Positions 7,640 to 33,265 of a stretch of DNA of 39,311 nucleotides are shown here, in pieces. Every line of letters begins with the position of its first letter. Position 1 is the first letter of the stretch. The notes beneath the pieces are model-generated. The model saw nothing but the letters and a program-made list of their open reading frames with translations, was not told the DNA's origin and did no database searches. This DNA is from a virus. Taxonomy: Duplodnaviria; Caudoviricetes. The stretch is from positions 1-39,311 of IMG/VR virus record IMGVR_UViG_3300042923_000153; one strand, 5' to 3'. Made by a program: the position numbers and the translations under genes.

Positions 7640-7936
7640 TTATTTCGGTATCTCCCATTCAGGTACTTCTCTTTTTGCTTTAACATCGGCATTAAACTGC
7701 ATTATTAATCTCTCTATAATTTCACTTTGCAACCCTTTACGATTTCCCACAATAGCCTTAAATTCTTCTAATACTTCATTGCGTATATAAGGTGTTATTC
7801 TGCTCCTAGTGTCAACATATTTAGGCTTATCAACATCAACAAGACTAGTTATGTCGTTGGTACTGGTACTATCACTATCTTTAGTACTAGTTTTAATCAT
7901 ACTATCCTGCGCCCTCTTAGGTACTTTAAATGTCAC
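7640..7936 (-). CDS. ParA partner (type Ib centromere-binding protein, RHH-like)
   Basis: Coupled downstream of parA; low-complexity N-terminus, then RITPYIRNEVLEEFKAIVG..GLQSEIIERLI. Confidence 0.7.
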   Translation of the reverse strand: MTFKVPKRAQDSMIKTSTKDSDSTSTNDITSLVDVDKPKYVDTRSRITPYIRNEVLEEFKAIVGNRKGLQSEIIERLIMQFNADVKAKREVPEWEIPK

Positions 7937-8699
7937 GTTTCAACAACTCCTCAACGAATATTTTGTAGGGCTCAATTGCTTTAGTTATCTCTGGATTATC
8001 TGTAAATCCATATGAAGATAATCTTTCTATTTCAACCATATTTTTTATTTCGGTATCAAATACAAGCCCTTTATAAACCTCCCTAGCTTCGGCTAAGTAT
8101 GCTTTGTGATTTGATTTTCTGTAATCAATTTTACTAGGTAGTATACCCAATATTTTAAGATTAGGATTATTTCTTTGTTGTGCTATCTTAGCTGTTGTTA
8201 AGAGTCTTCCTATAGCGCGATAACACCACTCTTCTGGAACGTATGGCATTATCAAGCCATCAGCAAAAGAGATAGCGTTTATAGTCTGATCGCTCAATGC
8301 TGGTGGAGTATCTATAATAATATAATCGTATTCGCTTTTTAATGGCTCTAGCGTGCGTTTTAAGACGAGATTTTCATTACCCTTATACTTTGTATATAGC
8401 CATCTAGGAAAACGTGCCATGTGATCGTCAGCAGGGATTACATGTAAATTATCATTTGCTTTCCACATACAATTATCAGTATTAAGTTTTACCATAGCAT
8501 CGTACAAAGTTCTCTGATAGAATTCATCAGTATCCTGGTTAAGTAGTAAACTAGATACATTTCCTTGATTGTCTAAGTCACCTACCAATACCTTGTAACC
8601 CATTTCACTAAGTATAAAAGATAGTGAACCTGATAAAGTTGTCTTTGTTGCTCCCCCTTTCTGCATGCAAGTAGCTATTACCTTTGCCAATTTCCCCAT
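7926..8699 (-). CDS. parA: ParA-family partition ATPase
   Basis: Deviant Walker A QKGGATKTT, DLDNQGN, YDYIIIDTPP; no N-terminal HTH (type Ib). Confidence 0.93.
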   Translation of the reverse strand: MGKLAKVIATCMQKGGATKTTLSGSLSFILSEMGYKVLVGDLDNQGNVSSLLLNQDTDEFYQRTLYDAMVKLNTDNCMWKANDNLHVIPADDHMARFPRWLYTKYKGNENLVLKRTLEPLKSEYDYIIIDTPPALSDQTINAISFADGLIMPYVPEEWCYRAIGRLLTTAKIAQQRNNPNLKILGILPSKIDYRKSNHKAYLAEAREVYKGLVFDTEIKNMVEIERLSSYGFTDNPEITKAIEPYKIFVEELLKRDI

Positions 8700-8712
8700 G
8701 TGTACCCCCTTG

Positions 8713-8734
8713 TTGATAGTGTTAGTACTATCAA
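8713..8734. promoter_or_regulatory. Inverted repeat upstream of parA (operator/parS-like)
   Basis: TTGATAGT-GTTAGT-ACTATCAA. Confidence 0.55.
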
Positions 8735-8785
8735 TGGTTTTATATACAGCGTTATATTAGGCAAATTTCACAAATATCCTGCAAA

Positions 8786-8824
8786 TAAAAATAATCCTGC
8801 ACTAGCGGTTAGGCTGTACAGGAT
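8786..8824 (-). terminator. Intrinsic terminator downstream of rep
   Basis: ATCCTGTAC...GTGCAGGAT stem followed by TATTTTT on the minus strand. Confidence 0.55.
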
Positions 8825-8825
8825 G

Positions 8826-8998
8826 TGTGTTGTCCACATATCAACATGGTTGACCATATGTTGTAGTCTATTTTGTTAATCTTTTATTTTCTGTTAATGT
8901 TTTTATAAATTTTAAAAAACTAAGATTTTATATATTTTAAAATTCCTTTTTGTGATTTTTGAAAAACGGATTAATTAAAGTTTAATTGCTGTGGATAA
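8826..8998. other. Putative plasmid-mode replication origin
   Basis: DnaA-like TTGTCCACA 8830-8838, perfect TGTGGATAA 8990-8998, small palindromes, very AT-rich tract 8870-8970, directly downstream of rep. Confidence 0.45.
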
Positions 8999-9804
8999 AC
9001 TTCCGCTACAAAGCATTCTATTAATATTCTTATATTTTCATCAGCCAAAAAACTGAGTATGTGATGATAATTTGAACTTTGTTTCCTAGATAGGTGCTTG
9101 TCCATTATAAATCTCATTCCGTAATCACTTAAAATGCTTTCTTCGTCAGTGTGTGGATCTGTAAATCCTGTAGTGATCAATTCTCTTATCTTAATGTACG
9201 CTGTTTTTTGCTCTTCAATGGTCATTTTATAGTGATCATTATTATGTATTGCCTTATATCTGCCAAAATAGTACTCTAATAATCCTTTGACTGATTCGTT
9301 CTTAATATCAGCACGTTGCTGTTCGCTGAACAACAACCTATTATATTCAGTAATCTTTGCCGTAATATCTGCGGTAGTCTTTGTTAAAGAATCTTCAATT
9401 TTTAACTTTCCATTTTCAATTATTTCACTTTCCTTATTGAAAAATTTAAATAACCAGTCAATAAAAGGTTTCTGGAGCAATTTATAGTGAATTGTAGGGT
9501 TTCCATTAGCCTTTTTTAGCTTAGTTTCTAATATTCCTTCTGACTCTAATTTCTTCCTAGCCTTGTTTATTTCATAGCTAGAAAGAAAAGTTTCCTCTGT
9601 CCATTCTTTAGCTGTTTTATAAATAAATCCGTCTTTTCTAGATCCCTTATCACACCAATAAACTAATTGCGATAAGAAGACACCACCACTTAAGTCTCCC
9701 ATAGCTTTACAAAACAGCCTAGGTACTGCGATTGTATTCTTTTCTCCAATGACTTCTTTCATCATCATGAAAACTTGTTGCTGAAAACTTTCTTTTTCTT
9801 CCAA
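8971..9804 (-). CDS. Replication initiator (wHTH), plasmid-mode Rep; probable TTG start 9804
   Basis: FLSQLVYW..K..DGFIYKT..EW..ET.LS..EI..ARKKL...G.LET...PT.HY initiator wHTH; AGGAGG RBS; next to parA. Confidence 0.75.
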   Translation of the reverse strand: MEEKESFQQQVFMMMKEVIGEKNTIAVPRLFCKAMGDLSGGVFLSQLVYWCDKGSRKDGFIYKTAKEWTEETFLSSYEINKARKKLESEGILETKLKKANGNPTIHYKLLQKPFIDWLFKFFNKESEIIENGKLKIEDSLTKTTADITAKITEYNRLLFSEQQRADIKNESVKGLLEYYFGRYKAIHNNDHYKMTIEEQKTAYIKIRELITTGFTDPHTDEESILSDYGMRFIMDKHLSRKQSSNYHHILSFLADENIRILIECFVAEVYPQQLNFN

Positions 9805-9807
9805 AAT

Positions 9808-9886
9808 AAAAAACCTCCTACCTTTTATTGACTGGCAGGAGGGAGATATGTTACAATACAGGTAAGTTAATACCTTGTCCTCCTGC
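9808..9886 (-). promoter_or_regulatory. rep leader attenuator: terminator hairpin containing the RBS, with an alternative anti-terminator
   Basis: mRNA CCUCCUGCC-loop-GGUAGGAGG-UUUUUU; upstream GCAGGAGG (9886-9879) can pair instead with CCUCCUGC (9842-9835). Confidence 0.7.
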
Positions 9887-9937
9887 AACGAGGGCAACCG
9901 ACCTAGCGACTTTGGCGAGTTGTTAGGTCTTTAATTT
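9828..9937 (+). ncRNA. Counter-transcribed antisense RNA (copy-number control) with its promoter
   Basis: TTGACT-18-TACAAT with TG extension (9828-9857); hairpin GACCTAGCGAC-TTTGGCGA-GTTGTTAGGTC then T-rich tail. Confidence 0.65.
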
Positions 9938-10005: not shown

Positions 10006-10041
10006 AAAAAAATAACCCCCACCAATTAAGGCAGGGGTTTT
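10006..10041. terminator. Terminator after the lysis operon (possibly bidirectional)
   Basis: AACCCCC-ACCAATTAAGGCA-GGGGGTT flanked by A and T runs. Confidence 0.75.
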
Positions 10042-10162: not shown

Positions 10163-10792
10163 CTAAAACTTAATTCCGACACCAGCATATTGAGCATCTT
10201 TACTAACCACTACTTGATAAGCACTAATACGGCTTAAACTTCCTGTATACCCTATAGCAGGGTTTATTTGTCCATCAATATACATTACCCCTGCCGTCAA
10301 TACATTGTGGCGTGTAAGGTCAATTGTAGGGATTTTAATGTCCATGTCTACGGTAGATGATTGAGTCATTGTAACTTTACCATTCTCAAACTTCTGATTC
10401 TCACCTTGCAGCAAGTCGAATTTATAGTCCTTGCCGTTTACCTTAACGCCTACTTTTGTTTTATCTGCATCAAGCTTAACGTCAGTAGCTTCTTTTTCAG
10501 TTACTGTGTTACCAGCAGCATCTTTGTATATGATAGTTTCCTTTGGAACATATGCAATCTGTGTATCAGTAACAACCTTTACCTTTTCAGTAACAATTGG
10601 ATCTGCTTGTACTGTTTTAACCTCCGTATTTAGCGTAGGAAAGTAGTTTTTAGTGATGTATGAACCAACTATGCAACCAGCAACAAAAGCTGCTAGAATC
10701 GCAATTATGAGCGTTTTATAAGTATATCCTTTGTTGTCGGTTGATGTGTTTAGTTTTGCATTGACTATGTCTAGGATTTCTTGCTCTGTCAT
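10163..10792 (-). CDS. Spanin-like lysis protein (N-terminal TM/lipobox, C-terminal beta-anchor)
   Basis: Follows the endolysin; TLIIAILAAFVAGC; ends in amphipathic strands and YAGVGIKF. Confidence 0.55.
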   Translation of the reverse strand: MTEQEILDIVNAKLNTSTDNKGYTYKTLIIAILAAFVAGCIVGSYITKNYFPTLNTEVKTVQADPIVTEKVKVVTDTQIAYVPKETIIYKDAAGNTVTEKEATDVKLDADKTKVGVKVNGKDYKFDLLQGENQKFENGKVTMTQSSTVDMDIKIPTIDLTRHNVLTAGVMYIDGQINPAIGYTGSLSRISAYQVVVSKDAQYAGVGIKF

Positions 10793-11361
10793 AGCAAATC
10801 ACGCACATAATTATAAGTGTTGTTTGCCCTGTTAGCATATCCTAATGCGTACCGTTCCCCTACATCAGCAGCAATGTAATAACTATCTATAAACATGTCT
10901 CGCAATATTTCTAAATTGCGAATATCATAGTCGTACTGTCGTCTTCTTAAGAAGTTGCGAACTACGTAATGAGATGTAGGACACCATATGCCAGCATAAA
11001 TAAAGCATTTGCTATCATCTAGATTTTCTACCTGGTTGAGGAAAGGCACATATAGTTCAAGGCAATCCTGAGTTAAAATCATCTGTTGTGCAATTTGTCC
11101 TTGTTCTGAATTTAGCAGATCCCTTAACTCTTGCTTTTCTCCGCTATCTATAATATCTGAATAGGTGCGTCCCATAAACTTCTGAGCACCATCTATATAG
11201 CTTAATAACGCATCTCCGCGACCATTTATACCCTCCCACGATGAAACACCCATACAAGGGTAATCTCCCGCTGTAGAGCAGCACACGTTGTCGTAGCTAC
11301 CTTCGACACCTGTGTTGATAATGCCAAGTGCTATTTCTCTTGCAAGTTCTTCATTTATCAC
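10789..11361 (-). CDS. Putative endolysin, lysozyme-like fold
   Basis: VEGSYDNV...D.P.MG.SSW and GY.NR motifs; follows holin-like genes. Confidence 0.6.
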   Translation of the reverse strand: MINEELAREIALGIINTGVEGSYDNVCCSTAGDYPCMGVSSWEGINGRGDALLSYIDGAQKFMGRTYSDIIDSGEKQELRDLLNSEQGQIAQQMILTQDCLELYVPFLNQVENLDDSKCFIYAGIWCPTSHYVVRNFLRRRQYDYDIRNLEILRDMFIDSYYIAADVGERYALGYANRANNTYNYVRDLL

Positions 11362-11579
11362 TATGGTTTTACTCCCTTCTCACTATTGTTTACAGAGTCG
11401 TTTACTCTTCCCAATAAGATATAGGCTCTTATAACTCCGTAAAACGTTGTTAATCTGTCAAGATCATATTTTAAGATCTGTTCGGCATTATGAAACCATG
11501 CATAAAGCCAGAGTACACCAAAAAGAACGTCCACAATGTGAACGTTCTGCGCTATAAATGTTTTTGCTTTATCTAACAC
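11361..11579 (-). CDS. Holin-like membrane protein
   Basis: Hydrophobic segments, charged C-tail NSEKGVKP, coupled to the endolysin. Confidence 0.55.
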   Translation of the reverse strand: MLDKAKTFIAQNVHIVDVLFGVLWLYAWFHNAEQILKYDLDRLTTFYGVIRAYILLGRVNDSVNNSEKGVKP

Positions 11580-11826
11580 GGTTACCTCCTGGCTTCAATA
11601 TCTTTCCTAATTCCTCTACCTGTGAAGGTGTGGCAATAATTCCTGCCTGGTGCAAAGATATTGATAGACTTTTATTTACTGAATTGGTATATTTAACATA
11701 TATAGGGCGAGATCTACTCTGATACGCTTTGCTGTATCCGTAGTGATACGCCATACCTGAGAAGAAGCATATGATAAGAAAAACATACATTACATATAAA
11801 GATTGTTTGTGATTTAAGAAATTCAT
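11569..11826 (-). CDS. Single-TM protein in the lysis cassette
   Basis: N-terminal hydrophobic helix; RBS AGGAGG. Confidence 0.55.
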   Translation of the reverse strand: MNFLNHKQSLYVMYVFLIICFFSGMAYHYGYSKAYQSRSRPIYVKYTNSVNKSLSISLHQAGIIATPSQVEELGKILKPGGNRVR

Positions 11827-11835
11827 ATAACCTCC

Positions 11836-12054
11836 TTAATGCTTGATTGCTGCGAATACTGCAATGCCAGTGGTAATCAGCCAAAGTAGTAAAACCTTGC
11901 TACCTGTCCACTGATTGACAGTTCCTTCTAGATTGCGGATACGTTCTTCTAGTTTCATTTCCTCTGTATTGCTCATTTTAGTTTTAATAATTGCCACGTC
12001 TATTGCTATAGCATCTAGTTTAGAGTCTAGTATACGGACTAGTTCATCACTCAT
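11836..12054 (-). CDS. XhlA/BhlA-like coiled-coil plus C-terminal TM (holin-associated)
   Basis: LEERIRNLE coiled coil, then VLLLWLITTGIAVFAAI. Confidence 0.65.
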   Translation of the reverse strand: MSDELVRILDSKLDAIAIDVAIIKTKMSNTEEMKLEERIRNLEGTVNQWTGSKVLLLWLITTGIAVFAAIKH

Positions 12055-12100: not shown

Positions 12101-12595
12101 GTGAATGATTATCATGAATCAGGCAACACGATTGTTTGGATACTAATTTTAGGATTTCTTGGAATACCATTCTTTTTTTACGAAGGATCAACGCTGCAGA
12201 ATAGTGTCGCTGTTTTTTTTGGTGTTGATATTTTTACAATATTAATGACTGTAGTAGCTTTTGGTGGTTTTTTTTACTTTATTATTCCTGGAATTGGGTC
12301 AACAAGATGGAGAAGAACTGTAGCAATATTTTTGATATGGATCTCATGCTTATTGATATACGGGACTACAACTAACATTAACGATTTAACGTTAGCCGTC
12401 CAAGGTAAAAAAACATTAAGTCCACCAACTATTGAAAACGGATTTAAACATATCCCTAATCCTCCAAAATCATCAATGTTGACCAATATCAATAAGTTAA
12501 ATAATGAAAGGAACTTTTTATTCGCTGTTTTAGCTACTGGTTTAGTGATGTTTTATCCAGAAATTAGAAAGTATAGTATAAGTAAAATTAAGTGA
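12101..12595 (+). CDS. Multi-pass membrane protein, candidate superinfection exclusion
   Basis: About 4 hydrophobic helices; opposite strand, convergent with the largest ejection gene. Confidence 0.6.
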   Translation: MNDYHESGNTIVWILILGFLGIPFFFYEGSTLQNSVAVFFGVDIFTILMTVVAFGGFFYFIIPGIGSTRWRRTVAIFLIWISCLLIYGTTTNINDLTLAVQGKKTLSPPTIENGFKHIPNPPKSSMLTNINKLNNERNFLFAVLATGLVMFYPEIRKYSISKIK

Positions 12596-12602
12596 GAATA
12601 TT

Positions 12603-15600
12603 TTAATTCCCTCTCGCTTTTTCTCTTTGCCATGATTTATTTGTTTCTTTTAACTCTTTGCCTAATTCCTTTAGCTGACTTTGATGTTCTTTTAATCTTT
12701 CGATTTTTTGCTCTTTTGGCAAAGATTGATCTTTTGCTATTTGATTCATTACAGCTTTAATATTTCTCTGCTCGCTAGTCAATACAGTTACCTTTTGATT
12801 GTAAAGTTCTTGTGTATTAATTGGAACGTTTTTCAACCCTAAAAATGATTGAGCGAAAGCACTCGGCAAATCGTATTGCCTTCCCTTGGAATCAACTCTA
12901 CCTTGGATAGCATTGCTTAACTTATCTCCTGCATAGTTACCAGGGAGAGGGACAGAAGGTGCTATTGCATTATAAGCAAAATTTGCCCATTCCTTCATCC
13001 GCTCTGCATCTGTCATTCCTGGCTTTATAACCTGCTGACCTAAAGAGTTTTTACCAGATTTGAAAAGAAGATATGCGTCACTAACTGGATTGCCAAATTT
13101 ATAATCATTAGCGAAAGGCAGTATATATGATAAGTCTAAATTATTTTGTACCTTTTGCTCCTTGCCATTAACTGTTCTTGTTCCATCACCTAATGGAAGT
13201 AACGTCCTTGACTTCATATAATCAGGCATAATCTTTTCGCGGTCTTCATTATTAACTTGATTCTGTGCCTTAGTAAATTTACTCAACTGTGCGGGATTTT
13301 CATATGCAGCCTTTAACGTTGCCTTTCCAGCAAAGTAAGGGAACTTAGCGAACGGCATTATCCCAGTCTTTGAAAACATATTAATCAATTCAGGAGCACT
13401 AGAATAATCAAATAGTGCTTTATTGGCTATCTGTGCAGCTTCTTTAATTGATTTACCTTGATCTCTATGATAAGCATAAGTTGCAACACGCCAAAATTCA
13501 TCAGGCTTGCCGAATTTATCCATTCCCCATTCGGCAGCTTTTTTAATACCTGTAGGCTTATCGCCAATAATATTTCTTAACTCTTGTTTCTGCCACACAT
13601 TCCCTAGTATACCAGTGCCTTTTACCTCGCGCATTAGTTCGCTCTTATTACCTCCGCGCATTGCTTGTGTAGCTTTCATCATATATTTTGGCATAGCTTG
13701 CATTGGTAAACCGCCAAATACATTAGCCATAGGGATTCCAGAATAAAAGTTCCTCATGGTTGATGCAGGATTAGCTAACTTTGCAACCTTGAACCAGCTT
13801 ACAGCCTTTTGCCAACCTTGTACTAATTCGGATGAACTAGCACCAGTGCCAGTCAACTTAATAACTTGATCGTGAATATCTTTAGGAACCCATTTGCCAG
13901 CCAATGCACCGTATGCTTTAGATTCAGGTATAGGAACGTACTGCCTACGCTTTGGTAATGTTCTTGATAAGTCGGCTGCCTCATCGCCTGTTTTACCCCA
14001 TACAGTATTGATTCTATTTAAGTATTCGTCCTCTCTAAGCGTTTTAGAAGATCGGTTTAAGGTGTCCATGATACGATACTCAGGATCTTTAATAAGACCC
14101 AGTTTTTTCATGGTATCGTCTGACAATGTTTGACGTTGGATAAAGTCTTTAGTATCTACTTTATGTACTGCTCCATAACCTTGACCGCCTGGAGCTTTTG
14201 ATTTGTTTAACGTTTGGTACACTCTTCTATATTCTTCTTCTGTACCATTTTTGCGTAATGCTTCAAGGAACTTATCAGGAGTTTCATACTGTTCAAATGA
14301 ACGCCTTAAATGCTCTCCGTCTAGATATGATACATACGCTTCATCAGATAGTCTACCTGTTGCTCTTAAAGCGTCCGCATTTGCTTTATTTCGCTTTATA
14401 AATTGTTCTCCTATGGTTTCTATTGCTTTTCGTAATCCAGTGTCTGGAATCGAATTTAAAACGCTTTCACGTGTTATTGTATCAGGAATTAACTTTGCTG
14501 GACTTAGTGCAGTTTCTTTTGCTACACGTTGAGAGTTTTGAAGAAGGTAATCGGGAATTTCTTTGTTTGCATCACGTAGAACGTTGAATGCTTCGCTTTT
14601 TGTGACGTTGCCTTTATTTATTTCATCGAGCAACTTTCCTGAATCGCTTGCAGACACAATGCTATTCTTTATTGCAGATGTGTCGGCATTTTTAAATACT
14701 GATTTTATTTGACTTGGACTAAAGGGGATTATCTCGGCGCCAGCATCAATTTTACCGCTAACTGATAATATTATTCCGTCATGACCTTGGCTTTGTAGTA
14801 TCTTTTTGAATTTCTCTGTTGTTTCAGGTGTTTTCGTTATTGACCGTATATGATTAACGTTGCTGATAATATAAGGATTTTTAATTGATACGTTTGAAGG
14901 TCTTATATTACCGCCAATCCTTTGCGCGTAATTGGCTGCAACTTGTGGATCGCTTGAAAAGAAAAATCCTAAATTTGAAATTCTATTAACTCTATCTCCA
15001 CTAGCTATTTTATTAGGATCAAAGTTATCAAAAGTAGAGTTTGTTCCATGATAAACAGTTAATGGTTTGCCTTGCTCATCAGCTATTTTAGTTCCAGATA
15101 AAAAACTGTTATTTGCTTTTTCCTCCAAAGAACCCGACTTGCTGACAGGACTTGCTTCTATATAGTCAGTAAGTTTATTTGCATCTTCGCCGTACTGGCT
15201 TTTGAGGTTCCTAACACTATCAACTAAATCATCGGCACCTAATTGATCTGTAGCCCTGCCAGCATTAAAATCAAATGCTTGATCCGCTACTCTATTTTTA
15301 CCTAAAGCATCCTCCGCAAAGGCAATCGCCTTTTGTCCTGCCTCTGTGCTTCTTGCAGCGTTTACAGCAGGGTTAATAAGGTTGTCAGTTAATCCTATAG
15401 CCTTACTACCTTCTGACACGCCTTTAGCTATTTTAGCAGGTGTAACGAACCATAGTGGATCTAAAGCAACGTCAGCAGCAAATCCGGTGACCGCTGCCGT
15501 TTTAGGGTTTTCTTTTACCCATTCAGGATTGAAAGTTTCCTTCCAAGATGTGTTTTCATCCCAACCTCTTTGTAACCCTTCTAGTACAGGAGAATCGTTC

Positions 15601-15926
15601 TGCAATGCCACTGTAGCACCAGCTAAAGCACCTCTAGGCTTATCTAGATAAGATAAGCCCTCTAATGCTGCTGAAGCTGGTTCTTTTACCACGTCCCATG
15701 CGTTACCCAGGAAGTTCATGATTCCGTTTTGCTCTTGTTCCGGCTGTTGCGCTTGCTGTTGCGACATGTACTGATCATAGACACTGTTGCCAGTAGTTGT
15801 TGGTGACCGCTGTTGAACATACGCATTATCATCACTGGATACAGACGACATGTAATCATCATATACACGATTACCTGTTGAGTTGTTGGCAGATTGTTTT
15901 GCCATAAAATCATCATATATTGACAA
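12603..15926 (-). CDS. Large DNA ejection (internal virion) protein with an embedded ADP-ribosyltransferase domain
   Basis: Last and largest of three ejection-type genes; YHGT...GFFFSSD..VA.NYA...KNPY...QGHDGII...EIIPFSPSQIKS at about aa 272-412. Confidence 0.8.
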   Translation of the reverse strand: MSIYDDFMAKQSANNSTGNRVYDDYMSSVSSDDNAYVQQRSPTTTGNSVYDQYMSQQQAQQPEQEQNGIMNFLGNAWDVVKEPASAALEGLSYLDKPRGALAGATVALQNDSPVLEGLQRGWDENTSWKETFNPEWVKENPKTAAVTGFAADVALDPLWFVTPAKIAKGVSEGSKAIGLTDNLINPAVNAARSTEAGQKAIAFAEDALGKNRVADQAFDFNAGRATDQLGADDLVDSVRNLKSQYGEDANKLTDYIEASPVSKSGSLEEKANNSFLSGTKIADEQGKPLTVYHGTNSTFDNFDPNKIASGDRVNRISNLGFFFSSDPQVAANYAQRIGGNIRPSNVSIKNPYIISNVNHIRSITKTPETTEKFKKILQSQGHDGIILSVSGKIDAGAEIIPFSPSQIKSVFKNADTSAIKNSIVSASDSGKLLDEINKGNVTKSEAFNVLRDANKEIPDYLLQNSQRVAKETALSPAKLIPDTITRESVLNSIPDTGLRKAIETIGEQFIKRNKANADALRATGRLSDEAYVSYLDGEHLRRSFEQYETPDKFLEALRKNGTEEEYRRVYQTLNKSKAPGGQGYGAVHKVDTKDFIQRQTLSDDTMKKLGLIKDPEYRIMDTLNRSSKTLREDEYLNRINTVWGKTGDEAADLSRTLPKRRQYVPIPESKAYGALAGKWVPKDIHDQVIKLTGTGASSSELVQGWQKAVSWFKVAKLANPASTMRNFYSGIPMANVFGGLPMQAMPKYMMKATQAMRGGNKSELMREVKGTGILGNVWQKQELRNIIGDKPTGIKKAAEWGMDKFGKPDEFWRVATYAYHRDQGKSIKEAAQIANKALFDYSSAPELINMFSKTGIMPFAKFPYFAGKATLKAAYENPAQLSKFTKAQNQVNNEDREKIMPDYMKSRTLLPLGDGTRTVNGKEQKVQNNLDLSYILPFANDYKFGNPVSDAYLLFKSGKNSLGQQVIKPGMTDAERMKEWANFAYNAIAPSVPLPGNYAGDKLSNAIQGRVDSKGRQYDLPSAFAQSFLGLKNVPINTQELYNQKVTVLTSEQRNIKAVMNQIAKDQSLPKEQKIERLKEHQSQLKELGKELKETNKSWQREKARGN

Positions 15927-32102: not shown

Positions 32103-32180
32103 TGGTCTGGATAGTAGGACTCGAACCTACGACTTCCTCCTTCCAAGGGAGGCACTCTGCACAAACTGAGCTATATCCAG
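32103..32180 (-). tRNA. tRNA-Pro (anticodon TGG) with encoded CCA
   Basis: Acceptor CTGGATA/TATCCAG, anticodon arm CCTCC-CTTGGAA-GGAGG, T arm GTAGG-TTCGAGT-CCTAC, A73, CCA. Confidence 0.92.
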
Positions 32181-33040: not shown

Positions 33041-33265
33041 TTACCTAATTTGAGTTACAGAAGTAGATTCATATCCATATACAATTACAATCTCATGACC
33101 CAAATTATCAACATACGTTACTACGGTCGACGTTGTTGCGTTGTGATATTTTTCAAAAGAATCTATCTTTTTCCACTGTCCCGACTGTTCTTCATTTTCT
33201 TTCGAACCATTGCAGCCAGTTAACGCCAAACTAACTAACAATATCAATATAATTTTAGTTTTCAT
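33041..33265 (-). CDS. Lipoprotein (probable start MKTKII)
   Basis: Signal MKTKIILILLVSLALTG-C with lipobox; GAGGG RBS. Confidence 0.7.
   Translation of the reverse strand: MKTKIILILLVSLALTGCNGSKENEEQSGQWKKIDSFEKYHNATTSTVVTYVDNLGHEIVIVYGYESTSVTQIR

What the first reader, a model, noticed from the sequence alone, without database searches (positions are those of the whole stretch)
10163..10792. Candidate new one-component spanin: inner-membrane anchor plus YadA-like outer-membrane beta-anchor
Seen: last lysis gene, after the endolysin; N-terminal hydrophobic helix (also a VAGC lipobox at C40), a long beta-rich linker, and a C-terminal ~48 aa of about four amphipathic strands ending YAGVGIKF. 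Known: a terminal aromatic residue on an amphipathic strand is the BAM beta-signal, and four-strand C-termini form trimeric autotransporter (YadA) barrels; described spanins are Rz/Rz1 pairs or T1 gp11-type u-spanins (OM lipoprotein, C-terminal TM). Inference: an inverse-topology IM-to-OM bridge for outer-membrane disruption in a diderm Firmicute. I saw no embedded Rz1-like lipoprotein.
Basis: partly seen in the sequence, partly recalled or inferred. Interest (0 to 1): 0.78.

Follow-up and report, generated by a model that had tools for sequence, protein, structure and literature searches.

The report
Barrel-anchored spanin of diderm Firmicutes phages
The last gene of this phage's cell-bursting cassette encodes a protein with a membrane helix at one end and a four-strand tail predicted to pair up into a small outer-membrane barrel at the other, so it likely bridges and breaks the host's two membranes without the lipid anchor that described spanins use, and some spore-forming hosts keep their own copy.

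Summary
Observation confirmed, except that the lipobox is incidental. The 209-aa ORF overlaps the stop of a lysozyme-fold endolysin. It belongs to an unnamed family found in 59 of 401 Negativicutes genomes but only 2 of 401 phylum-wide (both Negativicutes; holin control 97 of 401). Members keep an N-terminal GxxxG membrane helix, a beta-rich linker and four amphipathic strands ending in a BAM-type signal. 99 of 164 loci follow one of six unrelated endolysins; none of the 99 has a lipoprotein partner.

It is not a YadA anchor: profiles match only in the last strand. In a three-copy model (0.46; best control 0.00) two copies closed an eight-stranded barrel and the third stayed out. Compensating lumen volumes and GxxxG agree with a dimer.

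Best reading: a lipoprotein-free one-component spanin; function untested. New side finding: stand-alone chromosomal copies in 23 genomes, 21 carrying spoIVA, are candidates for the unexplained outer-membrane step of spore release or for a host tether. The scan noted a similar architecture earlier on other DNA (e1-5925453, e1-5357276). My literature searches found no description.

The parts
10163..10792 (-). 209-aa candidate barrel-anchored one-component spanin (P0001); last gene of the lysis cassette
   Evidence: only family hit PHROG 37316, unknown function, E 5.7e-6
10643..10720 (-). helix, residues 25-50, with the hydrophobic core 28-46 and G39xxxG43; predicted uncleaved inner-membrane anchor
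   Evidence: pLDDT 84-97; GxxxG in 100 of 144 helices vs 28 expected; AxA after the helix in 16 of 144; aromatic boundary residue in 117 of 144
10307..10642 (-). beta-rich linker, residues 51-162, predicted periplasmic; most conserved part of the family (T77, Y81, D104, N119, E131, F135, Q144)
   Evidence: median 112 aa between columns 46 and 162; inter-chain contacts at 65-84 and 137-161 in the complex model
10166..10306 (-). four amphipathic strands, residues 163-209, ending in a BAM-type beta-signal; predicted half of a dimeric eight-stranded outer-membrane barrel
10789..11361 (-). 190-aa endolysin of an unnamed lysozyme-fold family (invariant E20); named relatives are from Sporomusaceae
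11361..11579 (-). 72-aa hydrophobic protein, holin candidate; a relative precedes a lysozyme in another cassette of this family (L185)
   Evidence: (32% over 53 aa, pairwise E 8e-7)
11569..11826 (-). 85-aa protein with an N-terminal hydrophobic helix and basic tail; holin or accessory lysis candidate, unassigned
   Evidence: no family hit
11836..12054 (-). 72-aa coiled-coil-like protein with a C-terminal hydrophobic helix; first gene of the cassette, unassigned
10014..10039 (-). intrinsic-terminator-like hairpin closing the late operon
   Evidence: 7 sites found in the region vs 1.7 in shuffles

Best explanation
The protein is encoded by the last gene of the lysis cassette and is likely a one-component spanin of reversed, lipid-free design: its N-terminal helix is predicted to stay in the inner membrane while its four C-terminal strands are predicted to pair with a second copy into an eight-stranded outer-membrane barrel, so that the dimer would tie both membranes together and fuse or tear them once the endolysin has removed the wall. 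Steps: (1) late co-expression with holin and endolysin (gene order shown; expression inferred); (2) Sec export with an uncleaved signal anchor that dimerises through GxxxG (motif shown; topology inferred); (3) BAM inserts the tail through its beta-signal, and two tails close one narrow barrel (signal shown; barrel predicted); (4) dimers accumulate caged in the peptidoglycan; after wall hydrolysis they cluster, the beta-linker refolds and pulls the membranes together, as proposed for T1 gp11 (inferred by analogy only).
For: Genetics: 99 of 164 loci lie within 1.3 kb downstream of an endolysin, of six unrelated kinds (Amidase_2 54, Amidase_3 20, GH25 13, M15 5, glucosaminidase 4, this lysozyme family 3); 55 of 93 after dereplication at 90%. 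None of the 99 has a lipoprotein-like ORF within -300/+600 nt. In a Phascolarctobacterium prophage where the gene has moved to the head of the late operon, the holin-GH25 cassette has no spanin-like gene behind it. Host range: 59 of 401 genomes in the class of Lucifera butyrica, 2 of 401 across its phylum, both from the class sample, while phage holin PF05105 occurs in 97 of 401 of a same-sized phylum draw; 0 of 150 further Alphaproteobacteria. Anatomy. Oligomer: three copies of residues 62-209 scored 0.46, best of 3 controls 0.00; the mark was reached by 20 of 30 proteins solved as pairs and 1 of 23 solved as single chains; runs share at least 63% of contacts; partner pLDDT at least 56. In the best run copies 2 and 3 pair strand 1 with strand 4 in both directions and antiparallel (164-208, 166-206, 168-204, 170-202) and touch across the lumen (183-183, 195-195); copy 1 touches only the linker. 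Independent of the model: summed side-chain volume at 9 lumen positions varies less than in shuffles (SD 72.6 vs 119.1, 0 of 2000; still p<=0.004 at 50% and 40% dereplication), whereas lipid-facing positions gave p 0.07, 0.04 and 0.29. Kongari 2018 (PMC6139136, section 15 read) found no spanin in about 13% of genomes and left open that an OMP could act as an o-spanin.
Against: No experiment. One of three complex runs scored only 0.26; the job had three copies, unlike the two-copy calibration; the dimer is read from the contact list of the best run, and no two- or four-copy job could be run. 65 of 164 loci are not directly behind a recognised endolysin: 27 lie beside terminase or the late activator, 20 beside housekeeping genes, 18 were unassigned. 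Strands 2 and 3 are only 6-7 residues in many members (alignment), short for a membrane. Three members (L119, L158, L161) have a coiled coil and hydrophobic helix in place of the barrel. Cleavage of the N-terminal helix was judged by heuristics only. Two Negativicutes holin loci (L122, L123) and a holin-GH25 pair (L124) had no family member in 6 kb. Whether the linker spans the periplasm is unresolved: residues 65-84 and 138-161 both lie in the inter-chain interface.
Confidence: 0.52

Rival explanations
1. Same lytic bridge, but the tails form a YadA-like trimeric 12-stranded barrel or another higher oligomer.
For: Four strands with Gly-rich lumen faces and a terminal F; three copies passed the binding mark; strand 1/strand 4 pairing would occur in any ring.
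Against: Given three copies, the best run closed two and left one out. No helix to plug a 12-stranded lumen. HHalign to 24 Negativicutes YadA anchors: probability 1.6% (whole protein) and 10% (last 60 columns), 12 columns only. YadA_anchor is not among the 25 of 68 Pfam families shown for 150 members. Lumen volumes compensate, including between non-adjacent strands 1 and 3 (168 vs 193, rho -0.43).
Confidence: 0.13
2. Not a lysis protein: an envelope tether or lysogenic-conversion protein that links IM and OM (Negativicutes-specific), carried by phages as a moron and kept by hosts near division and cell-wall genes.
For: Stand-alone chromosomal copies before rapZ-yvcK-whiA (12 loci), after dnaB (2), near rplM-rpsI (4), after groEL (2), and one between sbp and ftsA-ftsZ.
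Against: Patchy: 59 of 401 genomes have any copy and 23 of these a stand-alone one, so it is not a core tether. Phage copies overlap or abut endolysin stops. In the quick tree the rpsI and groEL groups sit inside endolysin-linked clades (unrooted, no clade test).
Confidence: 0.15
3. The tethered beta-signal does not finish a barrel but stalls BamA, or locally thins the OM, weakening it without membrane fusion.
For: The beta-signal is the best-kept part of the tail; strands are short; the tail is divergent and can be replaced by a hydrophobic helix.
Against: Self-pairing and packed-lumen signals point to a folded barrel.
Confidence: 0.1
4. The N-terminal helix is a cleaved signal peptide or lipoprotein signal, leaving a free outer-membrane protein with a periplasmic domain.
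For: VAGC at C40 in this protein; lipobox slightly above chance (13 vs 6 of 144).
Against: Median uncharged stretch 21 aa, AxA in only 16 of 144, aromatic boundary residues in 117 of 144, conserved GxxxG; 27-residue N-region here.
Confidence: 0.07
5. Virion structural or receptor-binding part.
For: Beta-rich; in 27 loci it lies next to terminase genes.
Against: Same gene in a P22-portal podovirus, beside Phage-tail_3, Collar and Mu GemA genes and in host chromosomes; membrane helix and beta-signal.
Confidence: 0.03

Closest known systems
Unimolecular spanin, phage T1 gp11 type (Kongari et al. 2018, PMC6139136; passages and section 15 read)
   Same: One polypeptide bridging IM and OM, last gene of the lysis cassette, beta-rich periplasmic part.
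   Different: Polarity is reversed (IM helix at the N-terminus). The OM anchor is a predicted integral beta-barrel, not a lipoyl-Cys. No C-terminal helix (2 of 169). No sequence relation found.
Two-component spanins, lambda Rz/Rz1 (same paper)
   Same: N-terminal type II membrane helix like an i-spanin; position after the endolysin; predicted dimer.
   Different: No coiled coil in the typical member, no o-spanin lipoprotein (0 of 99 loci), Cys beyond residue 60 in only 13 of 150.
Trimeric autotransporter anchor (YadA_anchor, PF03895)
   Same: Four C-terminal amphipathic strands that must oligomerise to close a barrel; BAM-type last strand.
   Different: Similarity is limited to the last strand; no plug helix; predicted 2x4 rather than 3x4; the N-terminal part is tethered inside instead of exported.
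Eight-stranded OM barrels (OmpA/OmpX/OmpW class; features recalled)
   Same: Predicted strand number, narrow filled lumen, Gly-aromatic packing.
   Different: Those are single chains; here two four-strand halves would assemble from separate IM-tethered chains. The only related row in the fold search was OmpW at Z 3.6, not significant.

Membership tests
u-spanin (T1 gp11 type) | N-terminal OM lipoprotein signal | tested here: not met
   lipobox 13 of 144 vs 6 expected; Cys not conserved at column 40
u-spanin (T1 gp11 type) | C-terminal transmembrane helix | tested here: not met
   2 of 169; a helical hydrophobic tail only in three variant members
u-spanin (T1 gp11 type) | last gene of lysis cassette, beta-rich periplasmic domain | tested here: met
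any spanin | needed for OM disruption; complements lambda RzRz1 | not testable with these tools
   needs an experiment
two-component spanin (Rz/Rz1) | i-spanin with N-terminal membrane helix | tested here: met
   152 of 169
two-component spanin (Rz/Rz1) | helical coiled-coil periplasmic domain | tested here: not met
   only strands after residue 50 in the model
two-component spanin (Rz/Rz1) | linked o-spanin lipoprotein | tested here: not met
   0 of 99 loci; the window's one clear lipoprotein is 22 kb away with no membrane-helix neighbour
trimeric autotransporter (YadA anchor) | four C-terminal amphipathic strands with beta-signal | tested here: met
trimeric autotransporter (YadA anchor) | profile similarity to YadA_anchor | tested here: not met
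   HHalign probability 1.6-10%, last strand only; best member E 0.0017 among 150
trimeric autotransporter (YadA anchor) | trimeric 12-stranded barrel | tested here: inconclusive
   best run closed two copies, not three; one job, prediction only
trimeric autotransporter (YadA anchor) | plug helix before strand 1 | tested here: not met
   no helix after residue 50 in the model; conserved P155 precedes strand 1
BAM-assembled outer-membrane protein | BamA-dependent OM insertion | not testable with these tools
   signal present; dependence needs an experiment
SigE/SigK-controlled sporulation gene (chromosomal copies) | mother-cell promoter | tested here: inconclusive
   CATAnnnT upstream of 15 of 23 vs 16 of 67 background (relatives not independent), but only 4 of 20 spoIVA positive controls

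The most novel reading that the evidence does not exclude
A third structural class of spanin: a single IM-tethered chain whose four-strand tails dimerise into a natural two-chain eight-stranded OM barrel. It is a common OM-disruption device of Negativicutes phages and has been domesticated several times by spore-forming Sporomusaceae to break the mother cell's outer membrane at spore release.
Probability: 0.18. Interest if true: 0.92.

Novelty: new variant of a known kind. Interest (0 to 1): 0.74.

Why it matters
How phages of outer-membrane-bearing Firmicutes get past the outer membrane was not described in anything my searches returned, and about 13% of phages of Gram-negative hosts have no recognisable spanin (PMC6139136). 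This family supplies one small gene that can be tested directly in the lambda RzRz1 assay. If right, spanins need no lipoprotein, and a BAM substrate can be inserted while held in the inner membrane. A barrel made of two four-strand chains would be an unusual natural assembly (from my own knowledge; one search listed no such case, listing only). A 2021 review (PMC7985256, passage read) says that spore release in Negativicutes would need additional, unknown players to remove the outer membrane; the stand-alone host copies are concrete candidates.

Tried and rejected
No Pfam or NCBIfam match for the protein. Fold searches with the monomer gave nothing: Foldseek 0 at E<=0.001, VIA 0 at Z>=5; expected for a chain that folds as an oligomer, and no evidence either way. 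No tblastn match in 50,697 phage records with two family members or in 72,556 plasmids. ESM Atlas gave unnamed clusters at 0.95; the nearest named was DUF6808 at 0.91 (15% of members) and 0.88 for the tail, a lead only; no paper holds that term. Cluster look-ups of 20 relatives gave no host names beyond one Caudoviricetes label, so the hosts of most of the 272 representatives are unknown. The two 'Alphaproteobacteria' MAG hits are probably mis-binned: their neighbours cluster with Negativicutes-type cassettes and 0 of 150 other genomes of that class match. Lipoprotein reading of C40 rejected. Window lipoprotein 33041-33265 rejected as o-spanin for distance and lack of a partner. The sporulation-promoter test is inconclusive because its positive control failed (4 of 20). 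The careful tree did not finish; only the quick, unrooted tree was seen and no clade test was run. Rows dropped: 15 duplicate loci; L075 and L175 gave no ORF hit; proteins outside 155-240 aa (16 of 238); gapped rows in the volume test (100 and 118 of 150 kept). Literature searches that found no description of this architecture: (listings only).

Full report
Setting. The window is a complete-length 39.3-kb virus record with a P22-type portal, terminase, capsid and ParA/Rep genes. Named relatives of its endolysin come from Sporomusaceae, and relatives of the finding from Lucifera, Phascolarctobacterium and a Sporomusaceae MAG. The host is therefore very likely a Negativicute, a Firmicute with an outer membrane (inference).

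Observation. The ORF, its coordinates, the hydrophobic helix and the YAGVGIKF end are as described. It overlaps the stop of a 190-aa gene (ATGA) and is followed by a terminator-like hairpin. The 190-aa gene has no library hit, but its confident model aligns full-length with P22 lysozyme (Z 10.4), GH24 and GH46 enzymes and has an invariant E20, so 'endolysin' is well founded by fold, not by assay. Three small hydrophobic genes precede it; one has a relative in front of a lysozyme in another cassette.

Family anatomy. A profile search found 272 representatives at 50% identity. Of 169 dereplicated full-length members, 152 have an N-terminal hydrophobic helix, 2 a C-terminal one, and 129 end in F, W or Y. 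The last strand alternates hydrophobic and polar faces. The helix carries GxxxG in 100 of 144 cases against 28 expected; the lipobox (13 vs 6) and AxA (16) are not family features. So the helix looks like an uncleaved, dimerising signal anchor (GxxxG role recalled) and C40 is incidental. The monomer model gives four terminal strands and no helix after residue 50; fold searches with it were empty.

Not YadA; probably a dimer. Against 24 YadA anchors from Negativicutes (25 loci fetched, one gave no sequence) only the last 12 columns align, at probability 1.6-10%. Three copies of residues 62-209 scored 0.46 against a best control of 0.00. The mark was reached by 20 of 30 solved pairs and 1 of 23 single chains; runs were 0.46, 0.48 and 0.26, sharing at least 63% of contacts, partner pLDDT at least 56; the job is unlike the two-copy calibration. 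In the best run, strand 1 of copy 2 pairs with strand 4 of copy 3 and the reverse, in one antiparallel register, with 183-183 and 195-195 touching across the lumen; copy 1 touches only the linker. I read this as a closed 2x4 barrel; I could not see coordinates. The alignment agrees independently: summed volume of nine lumen-facing positions is far more constant than in shuffles (SD 72.6 vs 119.1, 0 of 2000; p 0.0005 and 0.004 after dereplication), while lipid-facing positions gave 0.07, 0.04 and 0.29. A large aromatic at 193 trades places with one at 202. Such packing can also arise between neighbouring strands in larger barrels, so this supports but does not prove eight strands.

Gene context. 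Of 164 loci, 99 lie just downstream of an endolysin of six unrelated kinds (55 of 93 after dereplication). Inspection added L185 (VgrG3-like lysozyme domain upstream) and L183 (Amidase_3 two genes downstream). None of the 99 has a lipoprotein-like ORF embedded or adjacent (a like scanner did find the window's own lipoprotein). In 27 loci, nearly all Phascolarctobacterium-type prophages, the gene sits by the late activator and terminase; in the one whose cassette I could read fully, holin and GH25 have no spanin-like gene after them. The gene occurs with podovirus, Phage-tail_3, Collar and Mu-type genes, which argues against a virion part.

Host range. 59 of 401 genomes of the class of Lucifera butyrica match. 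Across the phylum 2 of 401 match, both handles from the class sample, whereas a phage holin is found in 97 of 401. The tool does not name taxa for these genomes; that the phylum draw is mostly monoderm is my inference.

Host copies. 23 genomes hold a stand-alone copy with no phage genes nearby: before rapZ-yvcK-whiA, after dnaB, near rplM-rpsI or after groEL, plus three unassigned loci of the same clades. 21 of the 23 have spoIVA, against 70 of 401 in the class; this is confounded with kinship. In the quick, unrooted tree they fall in three separate places, two nested among endolysin-linked rows, which suggests repeated capture from phages (inference). A CATAnnnT motif like the SigE/SigK -10 boxes in PMC7438776 (Table S6, part 1 of 2 read) precedes 15 of 23 against 16 of 67 background genes, but only 4 of 20 spoIVA controls: inconclusive. 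PMC7985256 (passages read) states that Negativicutes would need additional players to remove the OM at spore release. A division-linked tether is the alternative, given the rapZ-whiA and sbp-ftsA neighbours.

Variant. L119, L158 and L161 keep helix and linker after an Amidase_2 gene but end in a coiled coil, a basic patch and a Gly-rich hydrophobic helix. The distal anchor is exchangeable, which fits a two-anchor bridge and shows that the barrel is not the only solution.

Comparison and novelty. Kongari 2018 (PMC6139136; passages and section 15 read) defines two spanin types, both needing a lipoprotein, and names OMP-anchored spanins only as an unexamined possibility. This protein fails membership of both types and of the YadA family, yet likely works like a spanin. 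Searches (listings) showed no description; subscription journals are largely missing from the library. Earlier scan notes describe a similar architecture, with coiled-coil linkers, in other Negativicutes prophages and other diderm phages. They are unchecked and are not counted as support. Sequence look-ups found no look-alike, and word searches for the dimer and the host copies found nothing.

Verdict. Real feature; new variant of a known kind. Spanin-like lytic role about 0.7 overall, with the dimeric-barrel version at 0.52. Interest 0.74.

Noticed in passing
L133, L135, L137-L139, L141, L144-L146, L149, L151, L152; L130-L131; L127-L129, L165, L172; L147-L148, L150, L153: Stand-alone chromosomal members of the family next to rapZ-yvcK-whiA, dnaB, rplM-rpsI and groEL; 21 of these 23 genomes carry spoIVA. 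A GAAT[GA]TA motif precedes 10 of 23 vs 2 of 67 background genes.
   Followed up: partly
L186:4680-5315: A distant member (E 8.9e-6) lies in the division cluster between DUF881/sbp and ftsA-ftsZ.
   Followed up: partly
L119:1495-2055, L158:4965-5534, L161:4748-5317: Endolysin-linked members in which the four-strand tail is replaced by a coiled coil, a basic patch and a hydrophobic Gly-rich helix.
   Followed up: partly
window 10789-11361: Unnamed lysozyme-fold endolysin family (444 relatives, no Pfam/PHROG/NCBIfam hit), with invariant E20, W42, E43 and a WCPTS motif.
   Followed up: partly
window 7640-9897: RHH-like, ParA and replication-initiator genes, and no integrase among the 35 proteins scanned: possibly a plasmid-like prophage.
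   Followed up: no
window 12603-15926: 1107-aa probable ejection protein with an ART-PolyVal ADP-ribosyltransferase domain (E 7e-22).
   Followed up: no
window 12101-12595 (+): 164-aa multi-helix membrane protein on the opposite strand between the virion genes and the lysis cassette; moron, perhaps superinfection exclusion.
   Followed up: no
window 33041-33265 (-): 74-aa lipoprotein among small genes upstream of the terminase, with no membrane-helix partner.
   Followed up: partly
window 32103-32180 (-): tRNA-Pro(TGG) between the late activator and the terminase small subunit.
   Followed up: no
L087, L088: Two MAGs labelled Alphaproteobacteria carry a Negativicutes-type lysis cassette; probably mis-binned phage contigs.
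   Followed up: partly
L187-L211: Negativicutes YadA anchors continue past the last strand into a C-terminal extension, so family members with short extensions beyond the terminal aromatic are not excluded from BAM insertion.
   Followed up: no
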